Notes: generated by a model from the sequence alone, not told the origin. Shown: positions 43,555 to 60,430, counted from the first letter of the stretch. The stretch: 64,000 bases of DNA from a virus (IMGVR_UViG_3300034107_000364); one strand, 5' to 3'. Made by a program: numbers and translations.

Positions 43555-43845
43555 ATGAGCACTACAGAAAAATTTCTAATGCTATTTTCAGACTTCGAGA
43601 TGATCGTTGTTGAAAAAACGAATGAGGTAAAAATAGACAAGAGTAATACTCAACATTCGATTGGCGCTAATCAAACAAAGAGTGAACTAAAGAAAGTACT
43701 TAAGCGATTGACTGAAGAATACAGCAGAGCTAAAAAGTCATTTAAACAAAATAAATTAAGTCGTCAAGAATTATTTGATTTCGAATGGAGATTATTTGAA
43801 ATACAAGAAGAGATTAAAAGATTAGATGACGAAACTGCGGCATAA
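43555..43845 (+). CDS. hypothetical coiled-coil protein (96 aa)
   Basis: ORF. Confidence 0.45.
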   Translation: MSTTEKFLMLFSDFEMIVVEKTNEVKIDKSNTQHSIGANQTKSELKKVLKRLTEEYSRAKKSFKQNKLSRQELFDFEWRLFEIQEEIKRLDDETAA

Positions 43846-44333
43846 TGAAACACCTAAAAAAATATGATCAATTTATCAACGAGAAATATCTAGACACTAG
43901 ATATTCAGCTGGTCTTGCGATTGTGTTTGATGGTAAAATTTTGTTAGGTCAATCTAGAGGTAGAAAAGAAGGAACTGGTTATGGTATATCTAAAGGTGGC
44001 ATCGAAGAAGGTGAATCACATTTAGATGCTGCTATCAGAGAAACTTATGAAGAGTTCGGTATTAAAGTTCCTAAATCTTTAATAAGTAAAATTGAACGTA
44101 CATTTGTTTTAACTTCTAGAAAGTATAAGTATAATAAAGTTATTTATTATTTTATAGTTGAAATAGATGACCTGTCTAAAATAGGACTTAAAGATCTAGT
44201 GGTACCTAAAGGGCAATTACAGCGTGAAGAAATTGATAATGCCAAATTTATGGACAAAATAGAAGCTTCACAAGTTATAATGTTAAGTCAACAAGTGGTT
44301 CTACAAAATTTAAGTGCAATGGGACTAATATGA
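43845..44333 (+). CDS. Nudix hydrolase with CTS-like N-terminal leader
   Basis: Nudix box GGIEEGESHLDAAIRETYEEFGI; N-terminus MKHLKKYDQFINE. Confidence 0.65.
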   Translation: MKHLKKYDQFINEKYLDTRYSAGLAIVFDGKILLGQSRGRKEGTGYGISKGGIEEGESHLDAAIRETYEEFGIKVPKSLISKIERTFVLTSRKYKYNKVIYYFIVEIDDLSKIGLKDLVVPKGQLQREEIDNAKFMDKIEASQVIMLSQQVVLQNLSAMGLI

Positions 44334-44653
44334 AAGAGTTAATAGGACAATACATATCAGAATGGGGTTGGGTGACAGCAGTAGCTATAATTTCATTTAC
44401 ATTCAAAGACATGATTGCTAATCTTGTTATTGGTATGCAGTTTTTATGGGGCAATGATTTTAATGTAGATGATATAGTTTATATTAAAGGCGCAAAGAAA
44501 GCTAGAATAGTTAGACAAAATATATACAAAACAACTTTTTATGTTTTTGGACATGAAAGAAAATTCGTAGTACCTAATAATAGACTATGGACTCTAGAAA
44601 TAGAAAAAGAAATACCAAAAGATGAAACACCTGAAAACTTTCCAATTATTTGA
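44330..44653 (+). CDS. hypothetical protein (107 aa)
   Basis: ORF; 3' end overlaps next gene by 30 nt in another frame. Confidence 0.4.
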   Translation: MKELIGQYISEWGWVTAVAIISFTFKDMIANLVIGMQFLWGNDFNVDDIVYIKGAKKARIVRQNIYKTTFYVFGHERKFVVPNNRLWTLEIEKEIPKDETPENFPII

Positions 44654-44885
44654 GGATGCTCAAAAAGTAGCTGACCTAAATCTTAAAGTTAGAGAATTAG
44701 ATTCTAAAAGAAACGAGATTAAAACTAAAGCTGCTGAAACTGCAAAAGCAATGAGAAACGAAGAGGATCCATTAAAATCTGAAATGTTAGCATTAACTGC
44801 ACAGAAACTTTCCATGCAAGCAGAAATATCAAAAATTGATATAAAACTTACTGCATTGAAAATAAAAATAGAATCTAATAAATAA
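44622..44885 (+). CDS. hypothetical coiled-coil protein with CTS-like leader
   Basis: MKHLKTFQLFEDAQK. Confidence 0.45.
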   Translation: MKHLKTFQLFEDAQKVADLNLKVRELDSKRNEIKTKAAETAKAMRNEEDPLKSEMLALTAQKLSMQAEISKIDIKLTALKIKIESNK

Positions 44886-44915: not shown

Positions 44916-45515
44916 ATGAAACACGTTAAAAATTACACAGAATACCTAAATGAGGTAAACAGAGCTGGAAAACCATATCATGGTTCCAAGATTCTTGTGT
45001 TTGATCTTGACGATACTTTAGTAATTTCATCAGCAAAAATAAAGGTTTGCAATAAGAAAACAGGAGAATGTTATTCACTGACTCCAGAAGAATTTAATAG
45101 TTATGAAAAACATGCAGATCATGAATTAAACTTTGATGAATTTAAATCATTAGAGATTATGAAAGCTGGTCAAATGATTGAACATTACTTAGACATATTT
45201 AAAGAAGCTTATAAATCACGCATCGCAGTTGGAATTGTTACAGCAAGAGATGATAGAGAAATGATTTATAGATGGTTAAGAGAACATGTTGGATTTAGAA
45301 TCGACAAAGATCTTATTTTTGCAGTGAATGATTCAGTACATAAATTCAAAGGTAGTATATCGGATCGTAAAAAACAAGCGTTTAGAGAATTGATCGATAT
45401 GGGTTACAGTGACCTACAATTTTACGATGATGATGAGGCTAATTTAGTATTAGTAAAATCATTAGAACAAGAACATGAAGGAATACAAATATCAACAATT
45501 AGAGCATACAAATAA
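44916..45515 (+). CDS. HAD-superfamily phosphatase with CTS-like leader
   Basis: leader MKHVKNYTEYLNE; HAD motif I FDLDDTL, motif II VTAR, motif IV YDDDEAN. Confidence 0.6.
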   Translation: MKHVKNYTEYLNEVNRAGKPYHGSKILVFDLDDTLVISSAKIKVCNKKTGECYSLTPEEFNSYEKHADHELNFDEFKSLEIMKAGQMIEHYLDIFKEAYKSRIAVGIVTARDDREMIYRWLREHVGFRIDKDLIFAVNDSVHKFKGSISDRKKQAFRELIDMGYSDLQFYDDDEANLVLVKSLEQEHEGIQISTIRAYK

Positions 45516-47261: not shown

Positions 47262-48008
47262 ATGGAAAATTACACATATATTTTAGGTCCTTGTAGCATT
47301 GAAAGCGAGGACAACTTCACAGAAGTAGCAAATGCACTATATCCTATAATGCAAGGAAAAGATTGGTATCTTAAAGGTAGCTTTGATAAAGCCAATCGAA
47401 CTTCAATTCATTCTAATCGAGGTCCGGGTTTAGACGAAGGTATCGAGATTATGCGAAATGTCAAAGCTAAATTTCCAGGTCTTAAAATCGTTACAGATAT
47501 TCACACAGCAGATCAAGCATTACCATTATCAGATGTAGTAGATGTGATTCAAATTCCAGCATTCTTATGTAGACAAACAGATCTTCTTATAGAATGTGCA
47601 AAACACTTTAATATTATCAACGTTAAGAAGGGTCAGTGGTTATCTGCTGATGCAATGAAACATGCTGTTACCAAGATTAAAGAAGTAAATCCAACATGTC
47701 AAGTATGGATTACTGAACGTGGTACTCAATTTGGTTTTGATAGGTTAATTGTAGATTTCAGAGGAGTTGATGTAATGAAACAATTTGCAGATAAAGTTAT
47801 CTTTGATTGTACGCACTCAACTCAAATGTCAGGTGATGGTATTACAGGTGGAAGTAGAAAACTTGCAAAGCAATATTCTTTAGCTGCACGTATTTTTGAG
47901 TATGATGGAGTATTTATTGAAACACATCCAGATCCTGATAATGCCATCTCAGATGCAGCTAGTCAAGTAGAATTGGATTGGATGGTAGAAAATCTAAAAA
48001 ACATTTAA
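47262..48008 (+). CDS. kdsA: 3-deoxy-D-manno-octulosonate 8-phosphate synthase-like (KdsA/DAHP synthase family)
   Basis: LGPCSIESE, KGSFDKANRTS, IQIPAFLCRQTDLL, NVKKGQ, FDCTHSTQ conserved blocks. Confidence 0.7.
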   Translation: MENYTYILGPCSIESEDNFTEVANALYPIMQGKDWYLKGSFDKANRTSIHSNRGPGLDEGIEIMRNVKAKFPGLKIVTDIHTADQALPLSDVVDVIQIPAFLCRQTDLLIECAKHFNIINVKKGQWLSADAMKHAVTKIKEVNPTCQVWITERGTQFGFDRLIVDFRGVDVMKQFADKVIFDCTHSTQMSGDGITGGSRKLAKQYSLAARIFEYDGVFIETHPDPDNAISDAASQVELDWMVENLKNI

Positions 48009-48383: not shown

Positions 48384-48815
48384 ATGAGTACAACAATCAT
48401 CGCAGTAGCATTAGTCTCTTTAGTAGTTATTATAACTATTTTTAAAGCAATTGCAAAAAAAGAGAAAGAAGATTCTAAAAGAGGTTCAGTACTTGATCCT
48501 ATTGTAGAACCTACAGTAAAAAAACCTACTAAAATTAAAGCTGCTAAACCAGCAAAAGAAGTAGCACCAATTGCTAAAGAAGCAAAAGCTAAAAAACTTA
48601 CACCTAAAAAACCAAAAACAGGTAAAAATGCTACCAGTGGTTCAGGCTCTGGATCAGGATCAGGCTCTGGAAGTGGATCAAATGTAGGTGGAACAGGATA
48701 TGCTTATGGTACAGGTTCTGGCCGTTCAAGTGGTAAAGGTTCAGGTTCTGGAAGTGGAAGTGGTTCAGGTTCTGGAAGCGGAAGCGGTAAAGGTTCCGGT
48801 GCTGGTAAAAAATAA
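48384..48815 (+). CDS. membrane-anchored Lys-rich protein with (GS)n low-complexity tail
   Basis: N-terminal TM IIAVALVSLVVIITIF, Lys/Pro-rich linker, two (SG)6-9 runs. Confidence 0.5.
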   Translation: MSTTIIAVALVSLVVIITIFKAIAKKEKEDSKRGSVLDPIVEPTVKKPTKIKAAKPAKEVAPIAKEAKAKKLTPKKPKTGKNATSGSGSGSGSGSGSGSNVGGTGYAYGTGSGRSSGKGSGSGSGSGSGSGSGSGKGSGAGKK

Positions 48816-48847: not shown

Positions 48848-51800
48848 ATGTCATCATTTATTAATTTCAATAATAAAGAAGTTACGACTGGAGCAAGCTA
48901 TACTGCTGAAGCGGTTAAAATAGCTTTATTAAAGTCAGAGACTAAAAGCTCTATAAAAGCTGAAACGCTTACAAAAAATATCAAAGAACCTTTGTCTTTA
49001 AATGAGGCTTTAGTATTTTTTACTGATAAATTATCAGCCATGAAATCATTATCTCTTGCAAATGCAGAGATCAATGAAGGAAAGATCAAGCAATTCGAAA
49101 CGGATTACAAGGATATGGAAACCAGTATCAAGAGAGGTATTGGTTGGATTGATCCAGAATATGTAGCAGATACTTGGGAAAATTCATCAGACTCTATTGA
49201 TTTTGAATTAGTTAAAACCGAGCTTTATAAGAGATTAATTGCTGCAGGTTTATTAGCATTTTCAAATCCAGAAGATGGTGAAACAAAAGGTGTACCTGTT
49301 AGAAGTTTAAAAGACTTAAGTATTAAAGAGTCTTTAGAAGCAAATAAGGTTAACGAAACTTTATTCTTTGCATTCTTTAATAACAAGAAAATCGAAGTAG
49401 AAGGTAAAGATCTTTGGGATGCTAAACAAAAAGCAATCATCGAATTAAAGGTACCTAAATCTAAAGTTGGTTTATTAGCTGTAGTAAGTGCTGAATCACA
49501 AAAGAATCAAGATTTTAAATTTGAATCTTTTGTAGGTGAAAGTGAAGTCATCACTGTTGAGGTTGATATGGCATGGGATGATTTAGACAAAGAAGAAGAC
49601 AAAGCAGCTAAAGCAGCTTTCAAGAAATATAAGATCAAAGTTGAACCAATGAGTCTGGGTCGCGGTAGTCAGGACATTCGTCAAGAAGGAACTTTCGAAG
49701 TAACTGGTAAGAAAAAAGACATTCTTGCATATCTTAAAAGTGATTTCTATGAAATGGATCAAGAAACTATTGAAGAATACTATCCTGAACTTTTAGAATC
49801 TTCTAAAAAACCAGCAGGTCTTACATTAGACGATACAAAAAAGGTTGCAGAATTATATGCTAGCGCTCTTTCTAAAGCAGATGGTGTTAAAGCTACTGTT
49901 AATAAAAAATCACTAGAAGAAGATTCATTTGATTTAGATGTAGATGGCGAAGAATATGCAGGTGGATCTTACAATATTTATCATAACGGAGAAGTAGTTA
50001 ATCATGCAGTTCCAGGATCACCGGTATATGGTTATTTTGATGATAAGCTTGATACTATTGTAAAAAACATAAAAAATCCAAAATTACACGAGAGTGCAAT
50101 GTCAGATATTGATATTATGGCTCAAGAAGCAAAAGATTTTAAATCATTTGTAAAAGAGTTTAAAAAAGAACATCATGACTTATCTAGTGCTGGTGAACCA
50201 GGTCAATTTGAAGCATGGTTACAAACAATTTACGATACTGCTAAAGAAAACATGGACGAGTCAGTAGTTAACGAAGGTCAATTCTCATGGATGGCTCAAG
50301 ATACTGGAAATCAAATTGGTTCTGAAAAACAAAATACCATTACTATTACAATGTTTGATGACAAAGGTAATAAATGGGAAGAAAAGAAATATGACGGTTA
50401 CGGTGAATTCGGTGGTAAAGATTACTACGAATTATTAGCTCAAATGAATGGAATTGAAAATCCTAATAGACAAGATGGTATTGATATTGCATTTGATAAA
50501 AAGAAAGTTAGTGGAAAAGTTCTTTTCCCAGCTTTAGTTGAAGATCCAAAACGTTTCAACTTCAAAAAGCACGATTTTACACAAGAAGCAGAACATGATC
50601 CAAATCAATCATGGTACCAAGAAGAAGAGTACGATGATGATTATGAAGAGTATGATGAATCTAAAGTTACTGAAGCAGCAAGAGTACCTTCTAATGTTTT
50701 AGATTTTGCTAAAAGAAAAGGAAGTTATGCAACTTCATTGGTTAAGAAAGCTGCTACATGGGCTGAAAAAGCTGGTAAGTATATTAGCGGTGGTACTGCA
50801 ATTGGTAAAGATTATATGACTATAATTTTAGACATGAAACATCAAGGTTCTGAAATTTATATTAATCTAAATGACGAAACAATTGAATTATTTGGCGAAG
50901 AAGTTACTGATGCTAAATCATTCCAAAAAGTATTAGATGCAAATATGTCAGAATCTAAAGTTAATGAATCTGCGGCTGATCTAATAAAATATGTTGAAAC
51001 CGCATCTGAAAAAACTTTCAAAGGTGGTGGTAATGGTCAAAATCTATTAGATAATGCAATGGAACTTGCTTCACACATTGGAGACTATGAAATGGGCAGA
51101 CCTACTAGAGGATATGAAGAAGATGGTTTTTATGGTCCAGCTACAATAACTTTATTTAAAAGATTAGTTGATCAAATGTCAGCAGATGATATTAAAAATA
51201 ATCAAGCTGATAAATATGAATCTAAAGTTACTGAATCACATTTTAAAGTTGGCGACAAAGTAAAAATGTCACATGGTGGAACTGGTGTAATTGTTTCTTT
51301 AGATAAAGAAGATGGCGCAGAGGATGAAAAATACTATAATGTAGAATTACCAAACGGAGAAATGCACAAGCACGCACCTAATGAATTGACTAAAGAATCA
51401 GTAGTTATTGAAGGTATATCTGTTACAGACGAGAGAGTTTATGGTAAAAAAGGTATTATCATTATGATTGATGATAATGGTAAACAAGTATCTGCGATAT
51501 TCAAAGATAAAAAGAATGCTGACAAATACAATAGAAATAAGGCAGAAGATATTAAAGCTCTTTTAGATTTAGCTAAAGATACTAAATATCCAAATGCTAT
51601 TGATGAATCTGTTGTTAATGAAGGTAGATCAATCAATAAAATCCAAAAAGAATGGAGTGAAACTACTACTAAAATGCAACAAAAAGCAGGTGAGTGGAAA
51701 GTAGCTGAAGGCGATAGAAAATCTGAATTGTTGGATGAAATGAAAGCATTGACAGCTAAGAAAAGAGAATTAGAAGCAGAATTAGACGCAGCTGTTGCTG

Positions 51801-52426
51801 GTAAAGATAAAGATCTTGAATTAGTAGTATCTGAAGGAAATGCATTCGGTGCCGCAAGAGCTAAAGCAATTGCAGATGGTGCTAAAGAATTTGAATTTGA
51901 AGGTGAAACTTATAAAGTTGAAGATGTTGGAGCAGACGATAAAGAAAATGCAAAAGAATTCGTAGAAGAAGGAAATGCATTCTTGGCTGCAAGAGCTAAA
52001 GCAATCGAAGAAGATGCTGAAGAATTTGAATTTAATGGTAAAACCTTTCCAGTTATTGAAGAAGGAAATGCATTCGGTGCAGCAAGAGCAAAAGCTATTG
52101 CAGATGGTGCAAAAGAATTTGAATTTGAAGGCGAAACTTATAAAGTAGAAGACGCTGGACCAGACGATAAAAAAAATGCTAAGGAATTCGTAGAAGAATC
52201 TAAATTAACGTTAGATGCTTTAGTAGAAATGTTTGAGGTAAAGGTTAACGAAGATTTAAGATCTGATGTTAAGAAATTTATCAAAGACAATGCAAATGAA
52301 TTAAACACTTTAGCTGATAAAGACGAATGGGACTTAATGTATACAAAACTATACAATGAGTTCAATGTTGAAGCAAATTCAACAAAAGGAAAAGACTTAT
52401 TAAAGACATTCCAGTTCGTATTCTAA
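48848..52426 (+). CDS. large acidic protein (1192 aa) with 3x ~33-aa internal repeats and recurrent ES(V/K)V(N/T)E motifs
   Basis: repeats EGNAFGAARAKAIADGAKEFEFEGETYKVED x3 near C-terminus; motifs DESVVNEG (x2), ESKVTE (x2), ESKVNE. Confidence 0.55.
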   Translation: MSSFINFNNKEVTTGASYTAEAVKIALLKSETKSSIKAETLTKNIKEPLSLNEALVFFTDKLSAMKSLSLANAEINEGKIKQFETDYKDMETSIKRGIGWIDPEYVADTWENSSDSIDFELVKTELYKRLIAAGLLAFSNPEDGETKGVPVRSLKDLSIKESLEANKVNETLFFAFFNNKKIEVEGKDLWDAKQKAIIELKVPKSKVGLLAVVSAESQKNQDFKFESFVGESEVITVEVDMAWDDLDKEEDKAAKAAFKKYKIKVEPMSLGRGSQDIRQEGTFEVTGKKKDILAYLKSDFYEMDQETIEEYYPELLESSKKPAGLTLDDTKKVAELYASALSKADGVKATVNKKSLEEDSFDLDVDGEEYAGGSYNIYHNGEVVNHAVPGSPVYGYFDDKLDTIVKNIKNPKLHESAMSDIDIMAQEAKDFKSFVKEFKKEHHDLSSAGEPGQFEAWLQTIYDTAKENMDESVVNEGQFSWMAQDTGNQIGSEKQNTITITMFDDKGNKWEEKKYDGYGEFGGKDYYELLAQMNGIENPNRQDGIDIAFDKKKVSGKVLFPALVEDPKRFNFKKHDFTQEAEHDPNQSWYQEEEYDDDYEEYDESKVTEAARVPSNVLDFAKRKGSYATSLVKKAATWAEKAGKYISGGTAIGKDYMTIILDMKHQGSEIYINLNDETIELFGEEVTDAKSFQKVLDANMSESKVNESAADLIKYVETASEKTFKGGGNGQNLLDNAMELASHIGDYEMGRPTRGYEEDGFYGPATITLFKRLVDQMSADDIKNNQADKYESKVTESHFKVGDKVKMSHGGTGVIVSLDKEDGAEDEKYYNVELPNGEMHKHAPNELTKESVVIEGISVTDERVYGKKGIIIMIDDNGKQVSAIFKDKKNADKYNRNKAEDIKALLDLAKDTKYPNAIDESVVNEGRSINKIQKEWSETTTKMQQKAGEWKVAEGDRKSELLDEMKALTAKKRELEAELDAAVAGKDKDLELVVSEGNAFGAARAKAIADGAKEFEFEGETYKVEDVGADDKENAKEFVEEGNAFLAARAKAIEEDAEEFEFNGKTFPVIEEGNAFGAARAKAIADGAKEFEFEGETYKVEDAGPDDKKNAKEFVEESKLTLDALVEMFEVKVNEDLRSDVKKFIKDNANELNTLADKDEWDLMYTKLYNEFNVEANSTKGKDLLKTFQFVF
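51820..52200 (+). repeat. in-frame tandem coding repeat (3 copies, ~100 nt unit)
   Basis: gaaggaaatgcattcggtgc(c/a)gcaagagc(t/a)aaagc... repeated. Confidence 0.6.
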
Positions 52427-52427
52427 A

Positions 52428-52510
52428 TTGTTCGCAACTTTTATGAAAATAATTAAGCCCAAATTTTTTAGTTTGGGCTTTTTTTTGTATATTAGCTCTA
52501 TAATTAAAAC
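52428..52510 (+). promoter_or_regulatory. terminator/promoter cassette, copy 13 (hairpin variant, TTGTTCGCAAC)
   Basis: TTGTTCGCAACTTTTATGAAAATAATT-AAGCCCAAAttttttagTTTGGGCTT-TTTTTTGTATATTAGCTCTATAATTAAAAC. Confidence 0.6.
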
Positions 52511-52568
52511 AAAATTAGAAGCTTTCATATAAATAGTATGAATAAATTGAAAATAAACGATAAATAGT

Positions 52569-52622
52569 TTTTTATGTCGTTTTTTTCGTGTACATTAACA
52601 ATATTAACCAATTAAATTTAAA
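52569..52622 (+). promoter_or_regulatory. promoter cassette variant, copy 14
   Basis: TTTTTATGTCGTTTTTTTCGTGTACATTAACAATATTAACCAATTAAATTTAAAAC upstream of ATG 52626. Confidence 0.45.
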
Positions 52623-52625
52623 ACT

Positions 52626-53213
52626 ATGTTATACACTTATTGTAAAGACTCGTTAACTTTTAAACGAATTAATCCCCGAAAAATGCTTAAAGCCATAGGA
52701 GCATCTTTGCTCTTCTTAGGCATTACTTATTATACCACATACAATGTGGCCACACAGAAAGCTTCCGCTAAATCCATGACTAACATGTCATATGAACAAA
52801 AAGTCTTAATAGTTAATGAAATATCCAAGAATGAGTTTTCAAAAGAAGCTGTGGTAGAAGAACTTAAGCGACTTAATGTAAAATACCCACATATTGTATT
52901 AGCTCAAGCTCTTATAGAAAGCGGCCATTTTCAAAGTAATATCTTTAGATCTAATAATAATTTGTTTGGTATGAAAGAAGCTAAACAAAGAACTACTACT
53001 GCACGTGGAACTAATTTAGGTCATGCTTATTACGATAATTGGAAAGAATCAATCTTAGATTATGCAATATTTCAATCAGCTTATCTTAGAGACCTTAATA
53101 CAGAAGAACAATATTTAAGTTATTTGGGTGCAAATTATGCAGAGGCTAGTAATTATGAATTAGCTGTAACAAATATGATAAAAAACGAAAAACTAAAAGA
53201 GCTTTTTAATTAA
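52626..53213 (+). CDS. membrane-anchored mannosyl-glycoprotein endo-beta-N-acetylglucosaminidase-domain protein (FlgJ/LytD-like glucosaminidase)
   Basis: TM LKAIGASLLFLGITYY; LAQALIESGHFQSNIFRSNNNLFGMK matches Glucosaminidase domain core. Confidence 0.6.
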   Translation: MLYTYCKDSLTFKRINPRKMLKAIGASLLFLGITYYTTYNVATQKASAKSMTNMSYEQKVLIVNEISKNEFSKEAVVEELKRLNVKYPHIVLAQALIESGHFQSNIFRSNNNLFGMKEAKQRTTTARGTNLGHAYYDNWKESILDYAIFQSAYLRDLNTEEQYLSYLGANYAEASNYELAVTNMIKNEKLKELFN

Positions 53214-53246
53214 GATATATAATATAATTAAAAAAATATTTATAGT

Positions 53247-53516
53247 ATGAAATACGCAAAACCTTTCGAAGCTTTCGCAAATAAAATTGAATTACCTAAG
53301 ACGATTACTGAAAAGAAATCTGATGGTACTATTTCAGATGACGAAGAAGCAAGAGAAGAAGATTTAATGGCTAACGTTGAAGTTGCTATCGATGACTTAA
53401 TCACTTTAATTAAAAAAGAAGCTAACGAAATAGGTGGTTCTTTTAGATCTCCTGGAATTGAATCTAGAGTTGGTAAACTTTTAAAAGCAAAATTAGCAAA
53501 AGCAAAATTAATTTAA
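53247..53516 (+). CDS. hypothetical protein with weak CTS-like N-terminus (89 aa)
   Basis: MKYAKPFEAFANKIE. Confidence 0.45.
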   Translation: MKYAKPFEAFANKIELPKTITEKKSDGTISDDEEAREEDLMANVEVAIDDLITLIKKEANEIGGSFRSPGIESRVGKLLKAKLAKAKLI

Positions 53517-53521
53517 TAATT

Positions 53522-53851
53522 ATGAAACACATTAAACTATTTGAACAATTTATCAACGAAGGTAAATTCATTGACTTTAAATTTAATTCTAACAAGGATC
53601 ATAATCCTTGTTGTGATATTTTAGAAGGTCACTTAGACGGTGATACATTTATCACATATGGTATTTATGTTAAAGCTGATGGTGATAAAAAAGTTGGAGA
53701 TGAATTCATGGAACAATACACTGGTTCAAACTATAAAGTAGGATCAAGCAAAAGATCAAATTCAAGAATTTATGAACCTTCTAAAATTCCTGCTAAATAC
53801 AAAGCAGCTTGGGAAGAATTAAAAGCTAAATACGAAAAAGAATATAAATAA
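53522..53851 (+). CDS. hypothetical protein with CTS-like leader (109 aa)
   Basis: MKHIKLFEQFINE|GK. Confidence 0.55.
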   Translation: MKHIKLFEQFINEGKFIDFKFNSNKDHNPCCDILEGHLDGDTFITYGIYVKADGDKKVGDEFMEQYTGSNYKVGSSKRSNSRIYEPSKIPAKYKAAWEELKAKYEKEYK

Positions 53852-53857
53852 GATATT

Positions 53858-54196
53858 ATGAAACACACTAAATTATTCGAAGAATTCTTAAATGAAGCTA
53901 AATCACCTAAACCAGAGATTTTAGTAAAATTATTTAAAGAACTTGCTAAAGCCAAAAATGTAGAAAAACTTATTTGGGGACATGACGATCAAGAAGAATT
54001 TCCACATATTGTACACTTTGCAAATGGATTAGAATCTGAAGCTCCAAGACACGAAGGTGACATGGAAGAATTTTCATTCTATTTAAATGACGATGGTCAA
54101 ACTATCTTAGGTATTTATGACTTAAGTGGATATGATGAAGAGTTAAAAACTCCAAAAGATGCAGTAGTTTGGTGCAGAGCTAACGAAAAACAATAA
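53858..54196 (+). CDS. hypothetical protein with CTS-like leader (112 aa)
   Basis: MKHTKLFEEFLNE|AK. Confidence 0.55.
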   Translation: MKHTKLFEEFLNEAKSPKPEILVKLFKELAKAKNVEKLIWGHDDQEEFPHIVHFANGLESEAPRHEGDMEEFSFYLNDDGQTILGIYDLSGYDEELKTPKDAVVWCRANEKQ

Positions 54197-54209
54197 AACA
54201 ATACACACG

Positions 54210-54401
54210 GTGGCACTCTTTAAATTGGTTAAATTTTTTGAATCCGAACTAGAAAACTTAGAAGCAAATAAATCTAAATGTTTTATAGTTAGAAAATGGC
54301 ATAATTATAGAATTATGATTATCAAAGATAGGATCAAAGAATTAAGAGACGAAATTAATTTAAGAAAGAGACAACCTCGTGAAAAACAAGATTACAAATG
54401 A
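54210..54401 (+). CDS. hypothetical small protein (63 aa, GTG start)
   Basis: ORF with non-ATG start; weak. Confidence 0.3.
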   Translation: MALFKLVKFFESELENLEANKSKCFIVRKWHNYRIMIIKDRIKELRDEINLRKRQPREKQDYK

Positions 54402-54736
54402 AACACACTAAATTATTTGAAGAATTCGTAAACGAAGGTAATGAAATGCCAATCGGTTTAGAAGCTTTTACTAAAGACGAAAAATCAGAAGGTAAACCTG
54501 CAGAAATTTATTTAGCAACCTTTAGTGGTAAAACTTTCAAAGCACAATCTACTGATAAAACATGGGACGACGGAGTTCCTGTAACAAAGAACTTTACAAG
54601 AGGTGGTTACAAAGACGTAACTATTAAAGGACAACACTATATCATTGACACACCAACATTCTGGTATTTCAGAGTAGGTCGAGTTTGGTATGCTGTTAAA
54701 CGTGCTGATTATGGTACACCACCATTTGAATATTAA
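54398..54736 (+). CDS. hypothetical protein with CTS-like leader (112 aa)
   Basis: MKHTKLFEEFVNE|GN. Confidence 0.55.
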   Translation: MKHTKLFEEFVNEGNEMPIGLEAFTKDEKSEGKPAEIYLATFSGKTFKAQSTDKTWDDGVPVTKNFTRGGYKDVTIKGQHYIIDTPTFWYFRVGRVWYAVKRADYGTPPFEY

Positions 54737-54750
54737 ATAAAATACAAATC

Positions 54751-55716
54751 ATGAAAATAGTTAAATTATTCGACGATTATCTAAATATTGCTGCTTCTCA
54801 GCAGAATATGTCAAGAGAACAGTATGCTGCATTTTATATGTCAGAAAAATCAATTACTGAAGAAGGTGATACTCTTACTGAATTAAATAATATGACTTTA
54901 GGTCAATTAGAAAGAATTGAAGATTATGCTGAAATGATCGGAGATCGCATGAAAGGCGGTCAAAAATTAGAATCTTGGATGTTTTCTCAAATCACTGGAG
55001 CGGTGGACAATCTAAACGCAGTTCATGATGCAATGGATGGTGTTGATGGTATTAAAGAAAAGAAAATCACAGTTGATTGGGAAGATGATGAAAATGCATT
55101 TATATTCTCAGATGATGGTATGGTTAAAGTTGATTATGATGGAGATTTTCAATACAGAGGTAAATGGTTTTCAACAGCAGAACACACTGGACCAGAAGAT
55201 TTACTTAAAGATTTAAATAAAGCATTCAAAGGCGATAAATTCGTTTATATTAGTGAATCTAAAAATTCTGATGCATTAGCAAAAGGAATTGATTCAGCAA
55301 TTATTAAAATTGATGACTCTTTGTCATACACTGATTTTGCATTAGCAGTTGCTAAGGTATTGATCGATGAATACGGTACACATAATTTTGGACCATTCAT
55401 GTCAGTATTACACAAAGAATTAGGTTTAAAAGAAAGCGTAGTTAATGAGAAGAAAGATGACTATCCAGTTTATCACAATCTCTATTCCTCAGCTATTAAT
55501 GCAGTTGAAATATATGCTAATTCTCAAGGATATACATTAGATCCTAAAGAATACGGTGATGCTTATATAGATGCATTCTTTAAACCAAATGATGGTAAAA
55601 CCAAAAAAGATACCTTAACACTTTTTAAAAACGATAAGGAACAAAAGAAATCTTTACATGTTCAAATTTATAATAGAGGAAACGATAAATTTGAATTGAA
55701 TATGTATATTAACTAA
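54751..55716 (+). CDS. hypothetical protein with CTS-like leader (321 aa)
   Basis: MKIVKLFDDYLNIA; internal ESVVNE motif. Confidence 0.55.
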   Translation: MKIVKLFDDYLNIAASQQNMSREQYAAFYMSEKSITEEGDTLTELNNMTLGQLERIEDYAEMIGDRMKGGQKLESWMFSQITGAVDNLNAVHDAMDGVDGIKEKKITVDWEDDENAFIFSDDGMVKVDYDGDFQYRGKWFSTAEHTGPEDLLKDLNKAFKGDKFVYISESKNSDALAKGIDSAIIKIDDSLSYTDFALAVAKVLIDEYGTHNFGPFMSVLHKELGLKESVVNEKKDDYPVYHNLYSSAINAVEIYANSQGYTLDPKEYGDAYIDAFFKPNDGKTKKDTLTLFKNDKEQKKSLHVQIYNRGNDKFELNMYIN

Positions 55717-55733
55717 TATGGAAGCAGACAGTC

Positions 55734-55973
55734 GTGAGTATAACGAAAAAACTAAAAAGCCGTCTATCAACATGGAGCATGATGGTAGCCCTATTTTTCA
55801 ATCCGCTTGGGTTCGACGTAATTCAGTACTGGTTGATCCAGACGACTGGAAGTCTTTGGCGCGCCAATTTCGTTATGTATTTTATTGCGGCGTCGTTCTT
55901 TGGGCTATCCATATTATTTCGCTGGCAATTAAAGCGTAAAGAGAATGAAACACATGATAGTTTAGATGTATAA
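55734..55973 (+). CDS. small membrane protein (2 TM) in GC-rich island
   Basis: MMVALFFNPLGFDVIQYWLI and FVMYFIAASFFGLSILF helices; preferred over overlapping 55718-55939 ORF, but frame choice uncertain. Confidence 0.35.
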   Translation: MSITKKLKSRLSTWSMMVALFFNPLGFDVIQYWLIQTTGSLWRANFVMYFIAASFFGLSILFRWQLKRKENETHDSLDV

Positions 55974-55986
55974 CTAATAAACGTTT

Positions 55987-56790
55987 ATGTTATTAATATC
56001 GAACAAAGGTAATATTACAGGACCTAACGTATTATTAGAAAATACACCAGATTATATAGATTTCGCAATTCAACAAGGATACAATGTCAAAATAGATTTT
56101 TGGTATCAAGACAATAAATTCTTTTTAGGTGCAAATGGACCAAAAACCCAAATAGATTGGGATTGGCTTACAAATATAAAACGTTTAGAATATCTATGGA
56201 TTAATTGCATGGATACTCAAACGTTTTCTTTTTTATTAGAGAATGCTCCATCTCTTAATTTCTTCTATAACAAAAGTGATAATATTACAATAACTTCTAA
56301 GGGTATTCCTTGGTCTAATATCACAAATCAATACACTTCTAATACTATTTCATGTAATGACACGAACATCGATAAGGTTGTGGGTGTGTGTTCTGATTGG
56401 GTTTCTAAATGGTCTAAACAGATAGCCATTTGTTTTTATGGAAACGCTGGTCTGCCTAGTAAGCGTATCATTAAGAATCATAAGTTAAATTTAATTAAGC
56501 CTTTAGAAGAGCTGGGATTTCATTTGGAGTACTATGGTTCCAAGATAATGAATTACAAAGAGACTGATCTTAAATACAACGAGATATATAACTTCAGAGG
56601 ATTAATATCCCATTTAAAAGATTCTGATAAAGATCAAGAAGAATTTGAATTAATACAACTCAAATCAATGTATGACATGATGGGAGATAATGTATATGAA
56701 ACCATATTCTTTATAAAATGGGATCAAGAATTAAAAGAAGAAGAAATAAAGAATCATATAAAAACATTTAAAACAAATGAAGAAAGTTAA
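55987..56790 (+). CDS. hypothetical protein (267 aa)
   Basis: ORF. Confidence 0.5.
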   Translation: MLLISNKGNITGPNVLLENTPDYIDFAIQQGYNVKIDFWYQDNKFFLGANGPKTQIDWDWLTNIKRLEYLWINCMDTQTFSFLLENAPSLNFFYNKSDNITITSKGIPWSNITNQYTSNTISCNDTNIDKVVGVCSDWVSKWSKQIAICFYGNAGLPSKRIIKNHKLNLIKPLEELGFHLEYYGSKIMNYKETDLKYNEIYNFRGLISHLKDSDKDQEEFELIQLKSMYDMMGDNVYETIFFIKWDQELKEEEIKNHIKTFKTNEES

Positions 56791-59212
56791 ATTATTTGAA
56801 GAATTCATAAGCGAAGTTTCAAAGCAAATGATTTCTGGAACAAGCGGTAGAACTATCACCACTTTAGATAATCGTAAATACGAATTAAAGAAGGATGTCA
56901 AAGATGCTAAGATTGGTAATTATATTAATGTAGTTTTACCAAAGGGTACTATTATCACTAATTTACCAGGTGGTGTTTTTGCAAATCATAAAGATCTTAA
57001 AGACAAATATTGTACAGGATATAAATCTGAAAGATGGGATGAAAAATTCGGAGTGGGAATTAGAACAATGCCAGATACATTAGAAGCTATTGAAGATAAT
57101 TCTAAAGTATTGGAATCAATTAGCCTTGAAGAAACTTTAAATGAATTACATTTAAGTTCTGCTGGTGTTAAAGATTTTTTAAGAGCTATTTATAATAGCA
57201 ATACTAATATAATACAGAAGTTAAACTTTAAAAATTTTAGAGGTTTAACAGATTATATCAAAGGAAGTGATATAGAAGAATTTGATGAATTACGAGATGA
57301 AGCAAAGGCAGCTGGATTAATATTGTTAGAATCAACCCTTAATGAAGCTAAAAAACAAAAATTTGTTTTATATACAAATCCTGGAAATTCAACCAGTGCG
57401 GGTTATATTGCAATTGGAGCAGCAGATGTAAGAGAAGTTCTAAGTGACGCAAAAAACTATTCTGATAGTTGTAAAATATTATATCAAGGAACGGGTACAC
57501 AAGATGATCTTGTAAAAGCTAAAAACATGTTTAGTGGTTATAGATTCGGTGATGAATCAATCGATGAAGCAGTTGAGTTAGTACATGTTTATGATACTAA
57601 AGGTGAATTACAAGGAACTGGTGAGTTAGTAAAAACTAGAGCTAATAAATCTCTAATTAGATGGGATGGTTCTAGTGAAGAATGGATCGATTCGAAATTG
57701 GTGAAATTAGTTGAAGGAATGATTAGTCCTAAAATGGCAAATGGTTTTAAAATTGGAAACAAAATTAAAACTCAAAAAGGAACTTACACAATAACTGGAT
57801 TTGGTTCAAAAACTGGAGCAACTAGAGATTTTGAAGCTGAAAATGAAAATGGAGATAAATTCAATTTAAGAGTTTCATTAAGAGGTGCTACGGGTATTCA
57901 AGTTGCAGCTGGTAAAAGTTTAAACTTTCCAGAGCAAGAAGAAATGTTAGAATCTACAATTAATGAAGATGCTGCAACCACATTTTTAATACTAATGCAA
58001 TCTGCCATGGTTATGGGACAATTAGCATTATTAGGTAATAAAATAAGTGCAGGTGGTGGTACTACTCCAATTGAAGATTTAAAAAATTGGTGGCAAAAAA
58101 GAAAATCTGATAAAGCTGTAAAATCAATCATTGATAAAATTAAAGATGACAAAGATATTGTTGAATTTATGAAGCTTACGCCTTCTCAACAACGTGGTAA
58201 ATTTAGATCATTAGTTGCAACTAAATTAAATGACGAAGAATTAAATTATTTGAATAAGATTAATAGAAATCATTTTCAAACTGAATCTTTAGATGAAAAC
58301 TTTCCAGGTCCTGGCGAAACAGTAGATGCTAAAGATCTTGATTACGATATGTTAGATTATTTTAGCAGAACTAATAAAGTATTATCAATCGATACAAAGT
58401 CCAAAAAAGGAATTAAAGGTTCTGTTGGTAAAATGTATAATGATTTAGTTTTTAACGGAGATAGTATTGCCAAAAAAGACATCGTACGTGTAAAGATCTT
58501 AGAAGGTACTTATAATAACGATAGAGAAATTGCAATCTACGACGGTGAAGATGGATTAACTTACATTGAAAAACGTGGTAAAGGATACTATGGTTACAAT
58601 GATGAGTTTGATTTTGAAGCAGAAGATAAAGCTGAATTAGAAAAGAAACTAAAATCATGGAAATATAAATTAATGTCAGGTTCTATTGACGAGGCATTTG
58701 TAGGACCATTTTTCTTTAGTAATTCAACATCTGATGAAGATCTAAAGAAAATGTATGATGACGCATTAAGTGGATATGCTAATTGGTTAAAAGGATTTGA
58801 ATATCCAAAAGCAGATTATAAGAAAGCATATCAAGAAATTGAAAAACTTCTTAAGAAAAGAGGAATTAAGGTTGATGAGTCTATTGTTAACGAGCATTCT
58901 TTACAGGAATCTAAGTACTTGAATGAAGCTAAGATTTTATCAAGAGTAGAAATGAAAAACGTAATGGTTACTAAATATGGTCTTAGTTTCGTAAAAAATT
59001 CGGAAGAGTTTGACGGTGAAGAAGGTGGTATTTGGTTAGGTGGTAACGACGGTTTATTAATGCCAAATGCGAAAGATGAAATGTTTAACTATTACCATGG
59101 AGGATCTAAATTTCCACAAGGTATTCACAAAGATCTTGCTAAATTTTTAGATAAGTGTGGATGGTATGGTCAATTTGCAGATCCAGGAACAGTAATGCTT
59201 TGGCCAAGATAA
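56777..59212 (+). CDS. large protein (811 aa) with CTS-like leader and internal (L/I/V)xE motifs
   Basis: MKKVKLFEEFISE|VS; internal DESIVNEH and SKYLNE|AK. Confidence 0.55.
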   Translation: MKKVKLFEEFISEVSKQMISGTSGRTITTLDNRKYELKKDVKDAKIGNYINVVLPKGTIITNLPGGVFANHKDLKDKYCTGYKSERWDEKFGVGIRTMPDTLEAIEDNSKVLESISLEETLNELHLSSAGVKDFLRAIYNSNTNIIQKLNFKNFRGLTDYIKGSDIEEFDELRDEAKAAGLILLESTLNEAKKQKFVLYTNPGNSTSAGYIAIGAADVREVLSDAKNYSDSCKILYQGTGTQDDLVKAKNMFSGYRFGDESIDEAVELVHVYDTKGELQGTGELVKTRANKSLIRWDGSSEEWIDSKLVKLVEGMISPKMANGFKIGNKIKTQKGTYTITGFGSKTGATRDFEAENENGDKFNLRVSLRGATGIQVAAGKSLNFPEQEEMLESTINEDAATTFLILMQSAMVMGQLALLGNKISAGGGTTPIEDLKNWWQKRKSDKAVKSIIDKIKDDKDIVEFMKLTPSQQRGKFRSLVATKLNDEELNYLNKINRNHFQTESLDENFPGPGETVDAKDLDYDMLDYFSRTNKVLSIDTKSKKGIKGSVGKMYNDLVFNGDSIAKKDIVRVKILEGTYNNDREIAIYDGEDGLTYIEKRGKGYYGYNDEFDFEAEDKAELEKKLKSWKYKLMSGSIDEAFVGPFFFSNSTSDEDLKKMYDDALSGYANWLKGFEYPKADYKKAYQEIEKLLKKRGIKVDESIVNEHSLQESKYLNEAKILSRVEMKNVMVTKYGLSFVKNSEEFDGEEGGIWLGGNDGLLMPNAKDEMFNYYHGGSKFPQGIHKDLAKFLDKCGWYGQFADPGTVMLWPR

Positions 59213-59232: not shown

Positions 59233-59610
59233 ATGAGACACGTTAAAACATATGAAGACTACAACAATTTAAATGAATATAATGATTTAAAGGGATCAGA
59301 AGTATGGAGACATATTAAAGATATTACACCTGAAAAAGAAAATATTCCAAATGGATTTAAAAAAGATATTGTTGGTAGAACATTTGCAAACGTAGATGAT
59401 TTTGATATGAAGTCTTTATTAAAAACCGATCCTGATTTTAAAGAATATTATGATTCAGGAGAAGAACGTTACACTGATGACGATGTAAGTCCAAGAGATC
59501 TTTCATTAGAAATAGTTGTCGTTGATGGTGTTTTATTAGATGGATATTCTAGAGTTGCTAATCTTTTAAGAAATGGTGAAAAAACAACTTCGGCTTTTAT
59601 AGCAAAATAG
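59233..59610 (+). CDS. hypothetical protein with CTS-like leader (125 aa)
   Basis: MRHVKTYEDYNNLNE|YN. Confidence 0.5.
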   Translation: MRHVKTYEDYNNLNEYNDLKGSEVWRHIKDITPEKENIPNGFKKDIVGRTFANVDDFDMKSLLKTDPDFKEYYDSGEERYTDDDVSPRDLSLEIVVVDGVLLDGYSRVANLLRNGEKTTSAFIAK

Positions 59611-59701: not shown

Positions 59702-60430
59702 ATGAAATATATCAAATTATTTGAAGAATTTGTAAGCGAGGGCGTATATGATCCAGGAATCCTTAAGGCATTCTTTATGGCAGGTGGACCAGGAAGTGGT
59801 AAATCTTATGTTGCAACAGAACTTTTTGATTTTCCAAAAGGAAAAGTAGGTTCAGTGTCTTATGCAACTGGACTTAAATTAGTTAATAACGATAATGCAT
59901 TCGAAAAAGGCTTAAAAGATGCTGGATATAATGCAGGAGATCTTGCAGATTTAGCAAAAGATCCTGAAAAATGGGCTGAAGTTATGGTTATTAGAGATAA
60001 AGCTAAAAACTTGACCAGAGGACTTCAAAATAACTATTTAAATTCTAGATTAGGTCAAGTAATTGATGGAACTGGTAAAGATTTTGATAAGATTAGTAAA
60101 ACTAGAGATATTTATCAAAACTTAGGTTATGATACATATATGGTTTTCGTTAATACATCATTAGAAGTTGCATTAGAGCGAAATCAAATGAGAGAAAGAA
60201 AGTTAGAAGATAAAATGGTTGAAAAAATGTGGAAAGAAGTTCAAAATAACTTAGGTCACTTTCAAAAACTATTTGGATCTGATAAAATGTTAATTGTTGA
60301 TAATTCAGCATATGGTGAAGATCTATTAGATCAAGCCGAAAAGCAAATTAACAGAAACTTGGGTACACCAGTTCAAAATCCATTAGGTAAACGTTGGATT
60401 CAAGAACAACTAGCAGCAAAAAAACAATAA
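59702..60430 (+). CDS. P-loop NTPase (kinase-like) with CTS-like leader
   Basis: MKYIKLFEEFVSE|GV then Walker A GGPGSGKS; adenylate/polynucleotide-kinase-like size (242 aa). Confidence 0.55.
   Translation: MKYIKLFEEFVSEGVYDPGILKAFFMAGGPGSGKSYVATELFDFPKGKVGSVSYATGLKLVNNDNAFEKGLKDAGYNAGDLADLAKDPEKWAEVMVIRDKAKNLTRGLQNNYLNSRLGQVIDGTGKDFDKISKTRDIYQNLGYDTYMVFVNTSLEVALERNQMRERKLEDKMVEKMWKEVQNNLGHFQKLFGSDKMLIVDNSAYGEDLLDQAEKQINRNLGTPVQNPLGKRWIQEQLAAKKQ

What the first reader, a model, noticed from the sequence alone, without database searches (positions are those of the whole stretch)
48848..59212. Recurrent internal ES(V/K/I)V(N/T)E motifs in the large proteins look like protease processing sites
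DESVVNEG occurs twice, and ESKVTE twice plus ESKVNE once, in the 1192-aa protein. ESVVNEK occurs in the 54751 protein. ESIVNEH and YLNEAK (nearly identical to the leader's FLNEAK) occur in the 811-aa protein. All fit the (L/I/V)-x-E pattern proposed for leader removal. Their reuse inside large proteins suggests a T4-like prohead protease cuts these into several fragments. The 1192-aa protein also has three 33-aa tandem repeats, which is scaffold-like.
Basis: seen in the sequence. Interest (0 to 1): 0.55.

Follow-up and report, generated by a model that had tools for sequence, protein, structure and literature searches.

The report
Cleavage-site junctions in phage cargo polyproteins
Three large proteins of an uncultured ~261 kb phage are strings of unrelated small domains joined by one conserved 8-residue motif that matches the cut site of a T4-type capsid protease, which suggests the phage loads "polyproteins" into its head and cuts them into separate cargo proteins.

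Summary
ES.[VIL][NT]E occurs 9 times in the window, always in the three named proteins, against 0.03 expected. In 100 non-redundant contexts from metagenomic homologues the motif reads [VLIM]-x-E-S-x-[VIL]-[NT]-E|[AG], with unrelated sequence on both sides. It marks module boundaries: BLAST alignment endpoints pile up on it and module order is permuted between homologues. The same modules exist elsewhere as stand-alone genes that start with the leader MKHIKLFE[EQ]F[IVL]NE|. That leader resembles the T4 capsid targeting sequence MKTYQEFIAE. The internal motif keeps the leader's processing half (P6 Glu, P3 hydrophobic, P1 Glu) and loses its two aromatic residues. Relatives, one syntenic with this window, carry a T4-type portal, an S77 prohead protease and a Gp23 capsid protein. 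Those proteins have matching sites: LINE|AEI on the capsid protein, LLIVE| and RVNE|S on the protease, and the full leader on a gp67-like core protein. Best reading (about 0.6): the prohead protease cuts polyprotein-style internal or ejection cargo. Cleavage is inferred, and this genome's own protease was not reached. The "scaffold-like" idea for the 1192-aa protein is not supported. I rate it a new variant of a known kind.

The parts
48848..52426 (+). p1192, a 1192-aa multi-module protein with no significant Pfam domain
   Evidence: ORF. Pfam gave no hit at E<=0.01; scanned in pieces at E<=1, every hit stayed below its curated cut-off. Its modules are permuted in homologues P0039-P0089.
50258..50275 (+). 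ESVVNE|G junction, aa 471-476
   Evidence: BLAST alignment ends fall at 472-480 and starts at 476.
50657..50674 (+). ESKVTE|A junction, aa 604-609
50951..50968 (+). ESKVNE|S junction, aa 702-707
51218..51235 (+). ESKVTE|S junction, aa 791-796
   Evidence: BLAST alignment boundaries fall at 791-798.
51605..51622 (+). ESVVNE|G junction, aa 920-925
   Evidence: BLAST alignment starts fall at 916-923.
49070..49078 (+). Weaker site INE|G, aa 75-77
   Evidence: BLAST alignment ends fall at 74 and starts at 75.
49790..49798 (+). Weaker site LLE|S, aa 315-317. In homologues the following module sits directly behind a short N-terminal leader, MNFNEFLNE|GSTS.
51833..52198 (+). Three copies of the EGNAF..AARAKAI..EFEF.G.T unit. 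Each copy is preceded by V-x-E|G (VSE|G, VEE|G, IEE|G).
54751..55716 (+). p321, three modules fused. Its leader is degenerate (MKIVKLFDDYLNI, no Glu at P1).
   Evidence: The three modules are three separate leader-bearing genes in the syntenic locus L025.
55249..55257 (+). ISE|S junction, aa 167-169
   Evidence: Aligns with the end of the leader MKHMTNFNSFVNE|SAK of the stand-alone L025 gene.
55432..55449 (+). ESVVNE|K junction, aa 228-233
   Evidence: Aligns with the leader of the stand-alone gene L025:8711-9013.
56777..59212 (+). p811, an 811-aa multi-module protein
   Evidence: The word-indexed search found 130 homologues with 9-100% query coverage. The exhaustive HMMER search found 707 clusters at 50% identity.
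56777..56815 (+). CTS-like leader MKKVKLFEEFISE|V
57128..57145 (+). EETLNE|L junction, aa 118-123
   Evidence: BLAST alignment ends fall at 116-123.
57329..57346 (+). ESTLNE|A junction, aa 185-190
57554..57568 (+). ESIDE|A junction, aa 260-264
57707..57715 (+). LVE|G junction, aa 311-313, with no ES prefix
   Evidence: BLAST alignment starts fall at 311-313. pLDDT falls below 50 at 312-318.
57950..57967 (+). ESTINE|D junction, aa 392-397
   Evidence: The following module sits directly behind the leader in P0035 and P0037.
58283..58297 (+). ESLDE|N junction, aa 503-507
58496..58504 (+). ILE|G junction, aa 574-576
   Evidence: BLAST alignment starts fall at 574-576.
58679..58693 (+). GSIDE|A junction, aa 635-639
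58877..58894 (+). ESIVNE|H junction, aa 701-706
58919..58927 (+).
   Evidence: Best-stretch starts fall at 713 in many representatives.
43845..44333 (+). Leader-bearing Nudix hydrolase (MKHLKKYDQFINE|K)
44622..44885 (+). Leader-bearing 87-aa protein with a degenerate leader (MKHLKTFQLFED)
44916..45515 (+). Leader-bearing HAD-like protein (MKHVKNYTEYLNE|V)
   Evidence: The Pfam HAD hits are below their curated cut-offs.
53247..54736 (+). Run of four small leader-bearing genes (89, 109, 112 and 112 aa). They share only the first 14-24 residues.
   Evidence: The bodies of p89 and p109 are internal or C-terminal modules of larger proteins elsewhere.
59233..59610 (+). Leader-like 125-aa protein (MRHVKTYEDYNNLNE|Y)
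59702..60430 (+). Leader-bearing P-loop kinase-like protein (MKYIKLFEEFVSE|G)

Best explanation
p1192, p321 and p811 are polyprotein-style capsid cargo of a T4-related jumbo phage. A short N-terminal leader, MKHIKLFE[EQ]F[IVL]NE, works like the T4 capsid targeting sequence and brings the whole chain into the prohead core. A gp21-type (Peptidase_S77) prohead protease, which cuts after Glu with a hydrophobic residue at P3, then removes the leader. It also cuts at each internal junction, [VLIM]-x-E|S-x-[VIL]-[NT]-E|[AG], which reads as two overlapping hydrophobic-x-Glu sites five residues apart. This releases small independent domains of about 50-130 aa (a few segments between motifs are longer) that stay in the head and are presumably ejected with the DNA.

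Shown:
- the motif, its enrichment and its conservation;
- its position at module boundaries;
- its equivalence to the leader;
- a T4-type head module with matching sites in relatives.

Inferred:
- that cleavage happens;
- that this genome has the same protease;
- that the fragments are packaged and ejected.
For: 1. Enrichment: 9 observed against 0.03 expected, and none elsewhere in the window.
2. Conservation: 100 non-redundant contexts share the motif while their flanks are unrelated. P1' is Ala or Gly in 62%.
3. Leave-one-out test: with the other positions fixed, P1 is Glu in 152 of 212 contexts and Asp in at most 2. P6 is Glu in 71%, P5 is Ser in 61%, and P3 is V/I/L in 77%.
4. Module boundaries: 47% of distinct BLAST alignment endpoints on p811 lie within 8 residues of a motif, against 15% expected (p=1e-12). 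For p1192 the figures are 25% against 7% (p=3e-6). Module order is permuted between p1192 homologues.
5. Interchangeability with the leader: the same module follows the leader in some proteins and an internal motif in others. The three modules of p321 are three separate leader genes in the syntenic locus L025. The window's stand-alone p109 and p89 are modules of larger proteins elsewhere, preceded by QLDE|A and ESVV[ST]E|.
6. Leader logo from 89 unrelated proteins: conservation stops exactly at E13|A14. The T4 CTS is MKTYQEFIAE (PMC8442874). In T4, residues 4 and 7 serve targeting, residues 8 and 10 serve processing, and Asp at position 10 blocks cleavage (PMC9026906). The internal motif keeps the equivalents of residues 8 and 10 and loses the two aromatic residues.
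7. Relatives carry Portal_T4 (237 bits), Peptidase_S77 (50.5 bits, cut-off 27) and Gp23 (148 bits). Their own sites are MA[NT]LINE|[AS]EI at the capsid protein N-terminus in 119 of 120 homologues (T4 gp23 has FLTE|AEIGG), LLIVE|MSS at the protease N-terminus (T4 has LLIE-9), and RVNE|SYG behind the protease domain. A gp67-like acidic protein between portal and protease starts MKHIKLFEEFVSE, and a protein with three ESVV[NT]E copies lies close downstream of the capsid gene (one short ORF between them).
8. Link to this window: contig IMGVR_UViG_3300013212_000061 holds that capsid and protease module (L280), leader genes, and a block syntenic with the window and its upstream flank. The 234-236 kb contigs that carry gp32/UvsW next to p1192-like proteins have the same head module.
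9. AlphaFold2 model of p811: all 11 junctions fall in segments with pLDDT below 50, between the confident islands 31-113, 267-311 and 320-390.
Against: - There is no proteomic or biochemical evidence; the phage is uncultured.
- The head genes of this genome were not reached. The capsid-protein search did not return a protein from the 260,917-bp contig, and the 10 kb on either side of the window hold no head genes.
- In T4 the internal proteins are cut only once (PMC8442874). In SPN3US all identified cleavages other than the protease's own remove N-terminal propeptides (PMC10052503). Release of several folded domains from one chain therefore has no experimental precedent in these systems.
- The AlphaFold2 model is poor overall (mean pLDDT 50, 56% of residues below 50), so the linker argument is weak (chance about 0.002 if the junctions are treated as independent).
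- Conserved Glu at P6 and Ser at P5 go beyond the few determinants known for gp21.
Confidence: 0.6

Rival explanations
1. The junction is a leader-derived linker that is kept but not cut. It could be a fusion scar from joining leader-bearing genes, or it could be retained as extra scaffold-binding (targeting) elements. On this reading the proteins act as intact multi-domain chains.
For: Internal motifs align with whole leaders of stand-alone genes, so they do derive from leaders. In T4, targeting and processing can be separated (PMC9026906). Polyvalent proteins are often delivered uncut (PMC5512222).
Against: A neutral scar would decay. Instead P6, P5, P3, P2 and P1 are held in 100 unrelated contexts, and P1 is almost never Asp. 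The residues lost are the aromatic ones that correspond to the T4 targeting positions. The residues kept correspond to the processing positions. P1' is small, as expected for a new N-terminus.
Confidence: 0.2
2. p1192 is a scaffold or core protein. It would be chopped into small peptides and expelled during head maturation rather than delivering functional domains.
For: T4 gp22, gp67 and gp68 are cut at many sites (PMC5694885). p1192 has a probable coiled-coil stretch around aa 930-990 (judged by eye from the sequence, not computed) and internal repeats.
Against: In relatives the coiled-coil scaffold is the C-terminal half of the protease gene, inside the head module. p1192 homologues lie beside UvsW/gp32. 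Its modules are 89-133 aa, conserved at 50-80% identity, and shuffled as units, unlike low-complexity scaffold. Some modules look like SH3/Tudor-like barrels, but only at sub-threshold scores.
Confidence: 0.08
3. The sites are cut by another protease, or at another time. For example, a host or phage protease could act after injection, or before packaging, independently of the prohead protease.
For: Nothing in the sequence fixes when or by what enzyme the cut is made. Phage P1 DdrB is processed before packaging (PMC5512222).
Against: No peptidase domain was found in these proteins or their neighbours. The same site occurs on the capsid protein, the protease and the core protein of relatives, at positions where T4 gp21 acts.
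Confidence: 0.07
4. The repeat is a DNA-level feature, such as a recombination joint or regulatory site, or a compositional accident.
For: Two copies are identical over 18 nt (GAATCTAAAGTTACTGAA). Modules are clearly shuffled at these points, so the joint may also help recombination as a side effect.
Against: Synonymous codons vary freely between copies. Enrichment over shuffles is about 300-fold. Conservation follows amino-acid classes across hundreds of diverged proteins.
Confidence: 0.03

Closest known systems
T4 capsid targeting sequence (CTS) and internal proteins IPI, IPII, IPIII and Alt
   Same: Both use a short conserved N-terminal leader on otherwise unrelated proteins encoded in hypervariable clusters. 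The leader ends in hydrophobic-x-Glu. It has two aromatic or hydrophobic positions upstream (T4 Y4 and F7; here F7 and F10). The cargo includes enzymes and, in relatives, anti-defence homologues, as T4 has IPI* and Alt.
   Different: The leader here is 13 residues (MKHIKLFEEFVNE) against 10 (MKTYQEFIAE). Homology between the two is not demonstrated. T4 internal proteins are cut once (PMC8442874). Here one chain carries up to about 10 junction sites and many unrelated modules. There are 11-15 leader genes per locus against three in T4.
T4 gp21 prohead protease (Peptidase_S77) acting on gp23, gp24, gp22, gp67, gp68 and itself
   Same: Relatives encode an S77 protease. Their capsid protein (LINE|AEI), protease N-terminus (LLIVE|) and gp67-like core protein carry sites at the positions cut in T4 (FLTE|AEIGG, LLIE-9).
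   Different: In relatives the protease is fused to the scaffold. The preferred site is more extended (E-S-x-V-N/T-E). The substrates proposed here are strings of folded modules rather than scaffold.
Multi-site processing of head and ejection proteins in giant phages phiKZ, 201phi2-1 and SPN3US
   Same: These are large phages in which many head proteins are cut after Glu at a short motif. Several sites per protein give redundancy (PMC9026906, PMC10052503).
   Different: Their motif is (S/A/G)-x-E. Their cleavages remove and fragment long N-terminal propeptides and leave one mature C-terminal product. No conserved short leader and no shuffled bead-on-string modules have been described for them.
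Polyvalent proteins of phages and conjugative elements (Iyer et al. 2017, PMC5512222)
   Same: Both are large mosaic proteins with many unrelated domains and extensive shuffling. Both are predicted to travel with the DNA into the host, and release of domains by proteolysis has been proposed.
   Different: None of their hallmark domains (zincin-like metallopeptidase, ART, ParB and others) and no embedded peptidase was detected here. The modules here are much smaller. Release would be in trans, by the prohead protease, at a conserved linear motif.

Membership tests
T4-type CTS / internal-protein system | A conserved N-terminal leader of about 10-19 residues on proteins that are otherwise unrelated | tested here: met
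   Window proteins share only residues 1-14/24. In 89 non-redundant leader-bearing ORFs, conservation ends at position 13/14.
T4-type CTS / internal-protein system | The leader ends in a hydrophobic-x-Glu processing site | tested here: met
   Position 11 is I/V/L in 76 of 89, position 12 is Asn in 53 of 89, and position 13 is Glu in 67 of 89.
T4-type CTS / internal-protein system | The genes lie in variable clusters | tested here: met
   The window has 11 leader genes between 43.8 and 60.4 kb. The syntenic locus L025 has a dense cluster of about 13 (a few non-leader genes interspersed) with different content.
T4-type CTS / internal-protein system | The phage encodes a T4-type prohead protease, portal and Gp23 capsid protein | tested here: inconclusive
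   Met in relatives: PF03420, PF07230 and PF07068 are all above their cut-offs, including a contig syntenic with this window.
T4-type CTS / internal-protein system | The leader is homologous to the T4 CTS | tested here: inconclusive
   There is only a resemblance (FEEFVNE against YQEFIAE). The peptide is too short for a statistical test.
T4-type CTS / internal-protein system | The proteins are packaged in the head and the leader is removed | not testable with these tools
   This needs virion proteomics.
Prohead-protease substrates with several sites (T4 gp22/gp68; phiKZ and SPN3US propeptides) | Sites lie C-terminal to Glu with a conserved P3 residue | tested here: met
   With the other positions fixed, P1 is Glu in 72% of contexts and Asp in at most 2 of 212. 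P3 is V/I/L in 77%.
Prohead-protease substrates with several sites (T4 gp22/gp68; phiKZ and SPN3US propeptides) | The cut regions are disposable scaffold or propeptide | tested here: not met
   The segments between sites are conserved modules that also exist as stand-alone genes. Some are predicted with pLDDT of 70-89.
Polyvalent proteins | Several unrelated domains in one polypeptide, with mosaic architectures | tested here: met
Polyvalent proteins | Hallmark conflict domains or an embedded peptidase (zincin-like metallopeptidase, assemblin-like, ART, ParB and others) | tested here: not met
   No Pfam or PHROG hit above threshold in p1192, p321 or p811.
Head scaffolding protein | Encoded in the head module next to the protease and capsid genes, and largely coiled-coil | tested here: not met
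   In relatives the scaffold-like coiled coil is fused to the protease. p1192 homologues lie next to UvsW/gp32.

The most novel reading that the evidence does not exclude
A large clade of uncultured T4-related jumbo phages may use a simple loading grammar. One capsid-targeting leader is followed by any number of unrelated modules separated by a double Glu-site junction. With it the phage would pre-package protease-released arsenals of small effectors. These would include anti-defence proteins (Tad3-like and Acb1-like homologues carry the leader in a syntenic relative) and enzymes (Nudix, kinase and HAD-like in this window). Genes would interconvert freely between stand-alone and fused forms at the junction.
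Probability: 0.4. Interest if true: 0.75.

Novelty: new variant of a known kind. Interest (0 to 1): 0.62.

Why it matters
If the junctions are cut, this would be a polyprotein strategy for phage capsid cargo; the literature search here found no description of one. One targeting peptide would deliver many independent small proteins into the host together with the DNA.

The rule is readable from sequence: the leader marks a protein as packaged, and the junction marks a cut. That would allow cargo, and therefore candidate first-minute anti-defence effectors, to be predicted directly from metagenomes. At least 707 protein clusters at 50% identity share a module with p811.

It would also extend the known substrate logic of S77 proteases. 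The 8-residue junction could serve as a compact, portable linker for engineering multi-protein payloads in T4-type capsids.

Tried and rejected
- Megablast and tblastn of the region and of p811 against 50,697 phage records found no match. There is no cultured relative that shares these modules.
- Pfam and PHROGs on the three proteins and on their separate modules gave only sub-threshold hits, to YccV-like and CarD RID domains.
- An exact DNA search for the start of p811 in IMG/VR found nothing.
- Foldseek of the p811 model against the PDB gave no match at E<=0.001, only weak Tudor/SH3-like similarities. The model itself is poor (mean pLDDT 50).
- I tried to reach this genome's own capsid gene by searching with the capsid protein of the nearest relative and looking for a hit on a 260,917-bp contig. 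None appeared among the best 120 hits, all of which were at least 71% identical to the query.
- Fetching 10 kb upstream of the window gave no head genes but confirmed synteny with the relative.
- No head genes were recognised in window positions 1-44 kb.
- A full-text search for KLFEEF, KLFEQF, ESVVNE and ESVVTE found no paper.
- The DNA-level and chance explanations were rejected.
- A self-comparison of the window proteins showed that the modules are not repeats of one domain.

Full report
**What the window is**

The sequence is low in GC (about 32%) and almost entirely coded on the plus strand. It carries phage genes: an endolysin, an ATP-dependent DNA ligase, a sigma factor and an exonuclease. 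It also has 25 tRNA genes.

The proteins of the finding are encoded identically on a 260,917-bp ENA metagenome contig. The two ends of that contig meet inside the tRNA array. The source is therefore probably a complete jumbo-phage genome of about 261 kb. No cultured phage shares the region.

**The observation**

All quoted strings are present.

Strict ES.[VIL][NT]E occurs 9 times in the 18,214 residues of the window's ORF products. All 9 are in p1192, p321 and p811. Residue shuffles give 0.03 for these three proteins, with a maximum of 2 in 2000 shuffles. Codons differ between copies, so selection acts on the peptide.

The three repeats near the C-terminus of p1192 are real but unevenly spaced. 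Tandem Repeats Finder did not call them.

**Anatomy of the motif**

A search with p811 returned 130 metagenomic proteins that cover 9-100% of it. Nearly all of them carry several copies of the motif. An exhaustive HMMER search found 707 clusters at 50% identity.

- **Consensus.** In 100 contexts whose flanks are less than 50% identical, the consensus is P8 V/L/I/M, P6 E, P5 S, P4 V/I/K/T, P3 V/I/L, P2 N/T, P1 E and P1' A/G (62%). There is no conservation beyond that.
- **Leave-one-out scans.** Each position is constrained on its own. P1 is Glu in 152 of 212 contexts and Asp in at most 2.
- **Double site.** The motif reads as two overlapping hydrophobic-x-Glu sites, [VLIM]-x-E|S and [VIL]-[NT]-E|[AG]. 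This is my inference. It would explain the conserved P8, P6 and P5 positions, and it echoes the site redundancy described for giant-phage propeptides (PMC9026906).

**The motif marks module boundaries**

BLAST alignment endpoints of homologues on p811 pile up at residues 116-123, 190, 264, 311-313, 397, 507, 574-576, 639 and 706.

- For p811, 47% of distinct endpoints lie within 8 residues of a motif, against 15% expected (p=1e-12).
- For p1192, the figures are 25% against 7% (p=3e-6).

The modules of p1192 occur in a different order in its homologues. The modules are not related to one another. They have no Pfam family.

An AlphaFold2 model of p811 is weak, with mean pLDDT 50. Its confident islands (31-113, 267-311, 320-390) end at junctions, and all 11 junctions lie in low-confidence segments. 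Foldseek found only faint Tudor/SH3-like similarity.

**The motif is the tail of an N-terminal leader**

Eleven genes between 43.8 and 60.4 kb start with MKHxKxFExF[IVL]NE and share nothing else.

In 89 unrelated leader-bearing ORFs from the window and its relatives, the logo is M-K-H-I-K-L-F-E-[EQ]-F-[IVL]-N-E|[ASG]. Conservation stops at position 13/14.

The same module follows the leader in some proteins and an internal motif in others. One example is MKKVKLFEEFVSE|VSKQMISGTSGRT against ...NESVNE|LRSDMISGTSGRR.

The syntenic IMG/VR locus L025 gives the clearest case.
- The three modules of p321 are three separate leader genes there.
- Conversely, the window's stand-alone p109 and p89 are modules of larger proteins elsewhere, preceded by QLDE|A or ESVV[ST]E|.

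**Comparison with T4**

The T4 capsid targeting sequence is MKTYQEFIAE, and the internal proteins are cut once next to it (PMC8442874). In T4, residues 4 and 7 serve targeting, residues 8 and 10 serve processing, and Asp at position 10 blocks cleavage (PMC9026906).

Aligned on the final Glu, the leader here has aromatic residues at the two targeting positions (F7 and F10) and V/I/L at the processing position. The internal motif keeps the processing positions and loses the aromatic ones. That is what one would expect if the N-terminal leader alone targets the chain and the internal copies are only cut.

**Head genes of relatives**

The leader's DNA pattern hit 34 IMG/VR stretches. One of them lies in a T4-type head module. 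In order, that module holds:
- Portal_T4 (237 bits);
- a 113-aa acidic protein in the position of gp67 that starts MKHIKLFEEFVSE;
- a Peptidase_S77 protease (50.5 bits, cut-off 27) fused to a coiled-coil scaffold-like tail;
- a leader protein;
- a Gp23 capsid protein;
- one short ORF, and then a 582-aa protein with three ESVV[NT]E junctions.

Across 43 such loci and 120 capsid homologues, three sites recur.
- The capsid protein starts MA[NT]LINE|[AS]EI. T4 gp23 is cut at FLTE|AEIGG.
- The protease starts ..LLIVE|MSS. T4 gp21 has LLIE-9.
- RVNE|SYG follows the protease domain.

The same capsid N-terminus occurs on the 234-236 kb contigs that carry gp32 and UvsW next to p1192-like proteins and leader clusters. 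It also occurs on contig IMGVR_UViG_3300013212_000061. The other parts of that contig are syntenic with the window's start and its upstream flank.

**Conclusion and limits**

The best explanation is polyprotein-style capsid cargo released by an S77 prohead protease. I put this at about 0.6.

Three things are not shown: cleavage itself, packaging, and the presence of the protease in this exact genome. The attempts to reach its head module failed.

The main rival, at 0.2, is an uncut leader-derived linker or extra scaffold-binding element. The pattern of which residues are kept argues against it.

The scaffold idea for p1192 is not supported.

Known systems differ. T4 internal proteins are cut once. 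Giant-phage cleavages remove propeptides (PMC10052503). Polyvalent proteins (PMC5512222) use embedded peptidases and different domains.

No paper in the library contains these motifs. I rate the finding a new variant of a known kind.

**Cargo**

Pfam scans of 45 unrelated leader proteins gave the following hits:
- Nudix and a Zeta/AAA_33 kinase, both in the window;
- GNAT, ATP-grasp and DUF5824;
- a Tad3 homologue (78 bits, cut-off 27; L025:2861-3610);
- a 2H phosphoesterase with a weak Acb1 match.

This fits the T4 precedent of packaged host-takeover and anti-restriction proteins. It suggests pre-packaged anti-defence cargo, but that is speculation.

Noticed in passing
window 1760-9611 and 30401-30475: There are 25 tRNA genes, 24 of them in one array. 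The two ends of the 260,917-bp source contig map to window positions of about 3246 and 3983, inside this array. The assembly therefore probably closes into a circle there.
   Followed up: partly
window 43845-44333, 44916-45515, 59702-60430: The CTS-like leader is also attached to enzymes: a Nudix hydrolase, a HAD-like protein (weak Pfam hit) and a P-loop kinase (Zeta_toxin/AAA_33). This implies that enzymes, and not only small basic proteins, may be packaged.
   Followed up: partly
L025:2861-3610 and L025:3924-4463 (IMGVR_UViG_3300047483_000490, syntenic with window 38-53 kb): The first leader-bearing gene is a Tad3 (type I Thoeris inhibitor) homologue at 78 bits against a cut-off of 27. A second leader gene is a 2H phosphoesterase with a weak Acb1 (anti-CBASS) match, E 4e-5, measured on a close paralogue from another locus. 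These could be capsid-delivered anti-defence cargo.
   Followed up: partly
window 54751-54789: p321's own leader reads MKIVKLFDDYLNI, with Ile where the P1 Glu should be. The first usable site may be SITE|E at aa 34-37, where the stand-alone L025 homologue's leader ends.
   Followed up: partly
window 48384-48815: A 143-aa protein just upstream of p1192 has an N-terminal hydrophobic helix, a Lys/Pro/Ala-rich stretch and long (GS)n low-complexity runs.
   Followed up: no
window 61422-64000 and L001:14646-22436: GC rises to 0.42 here. The region encodes a 559-aa protein full of PT-rich repeats (PTATPIPPTAT...), followed by SprB-like, 1294-aa and 906-aa proteins. These are probably fibres or adhesins. 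None of them carries the junction motif.
   Followed up: partly
window 38796-42879 and 47262-48008: A sugar-related gene set flanks the leader cluster. It comprises a 1068-aa glycosyltransferase-like protein, an ORF I read by eye as an NAD-dependent epimerase (not scanned), and a DAHP_synth_1/KdsA-like protein. The first two genes are conserved at the same position in L025.
   Followed up: no
L045:12005-13852 and 42 related loci: In this clade the S77 prohead protease is fused to a scaffold-like tail of about 400-500 aa containing imperfect repeats (...LDQSIQYTEHVAEK...). In T4 the protease gp21 and scaffold gp22 are separate genes.
   Followed up: partly
window 44330-44653: A 107-aa protein between two leader genes matches the beta-domain of mechanosensitive channels (PF00924, 26 bits against a cut-off of 20).
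   Followed up: no
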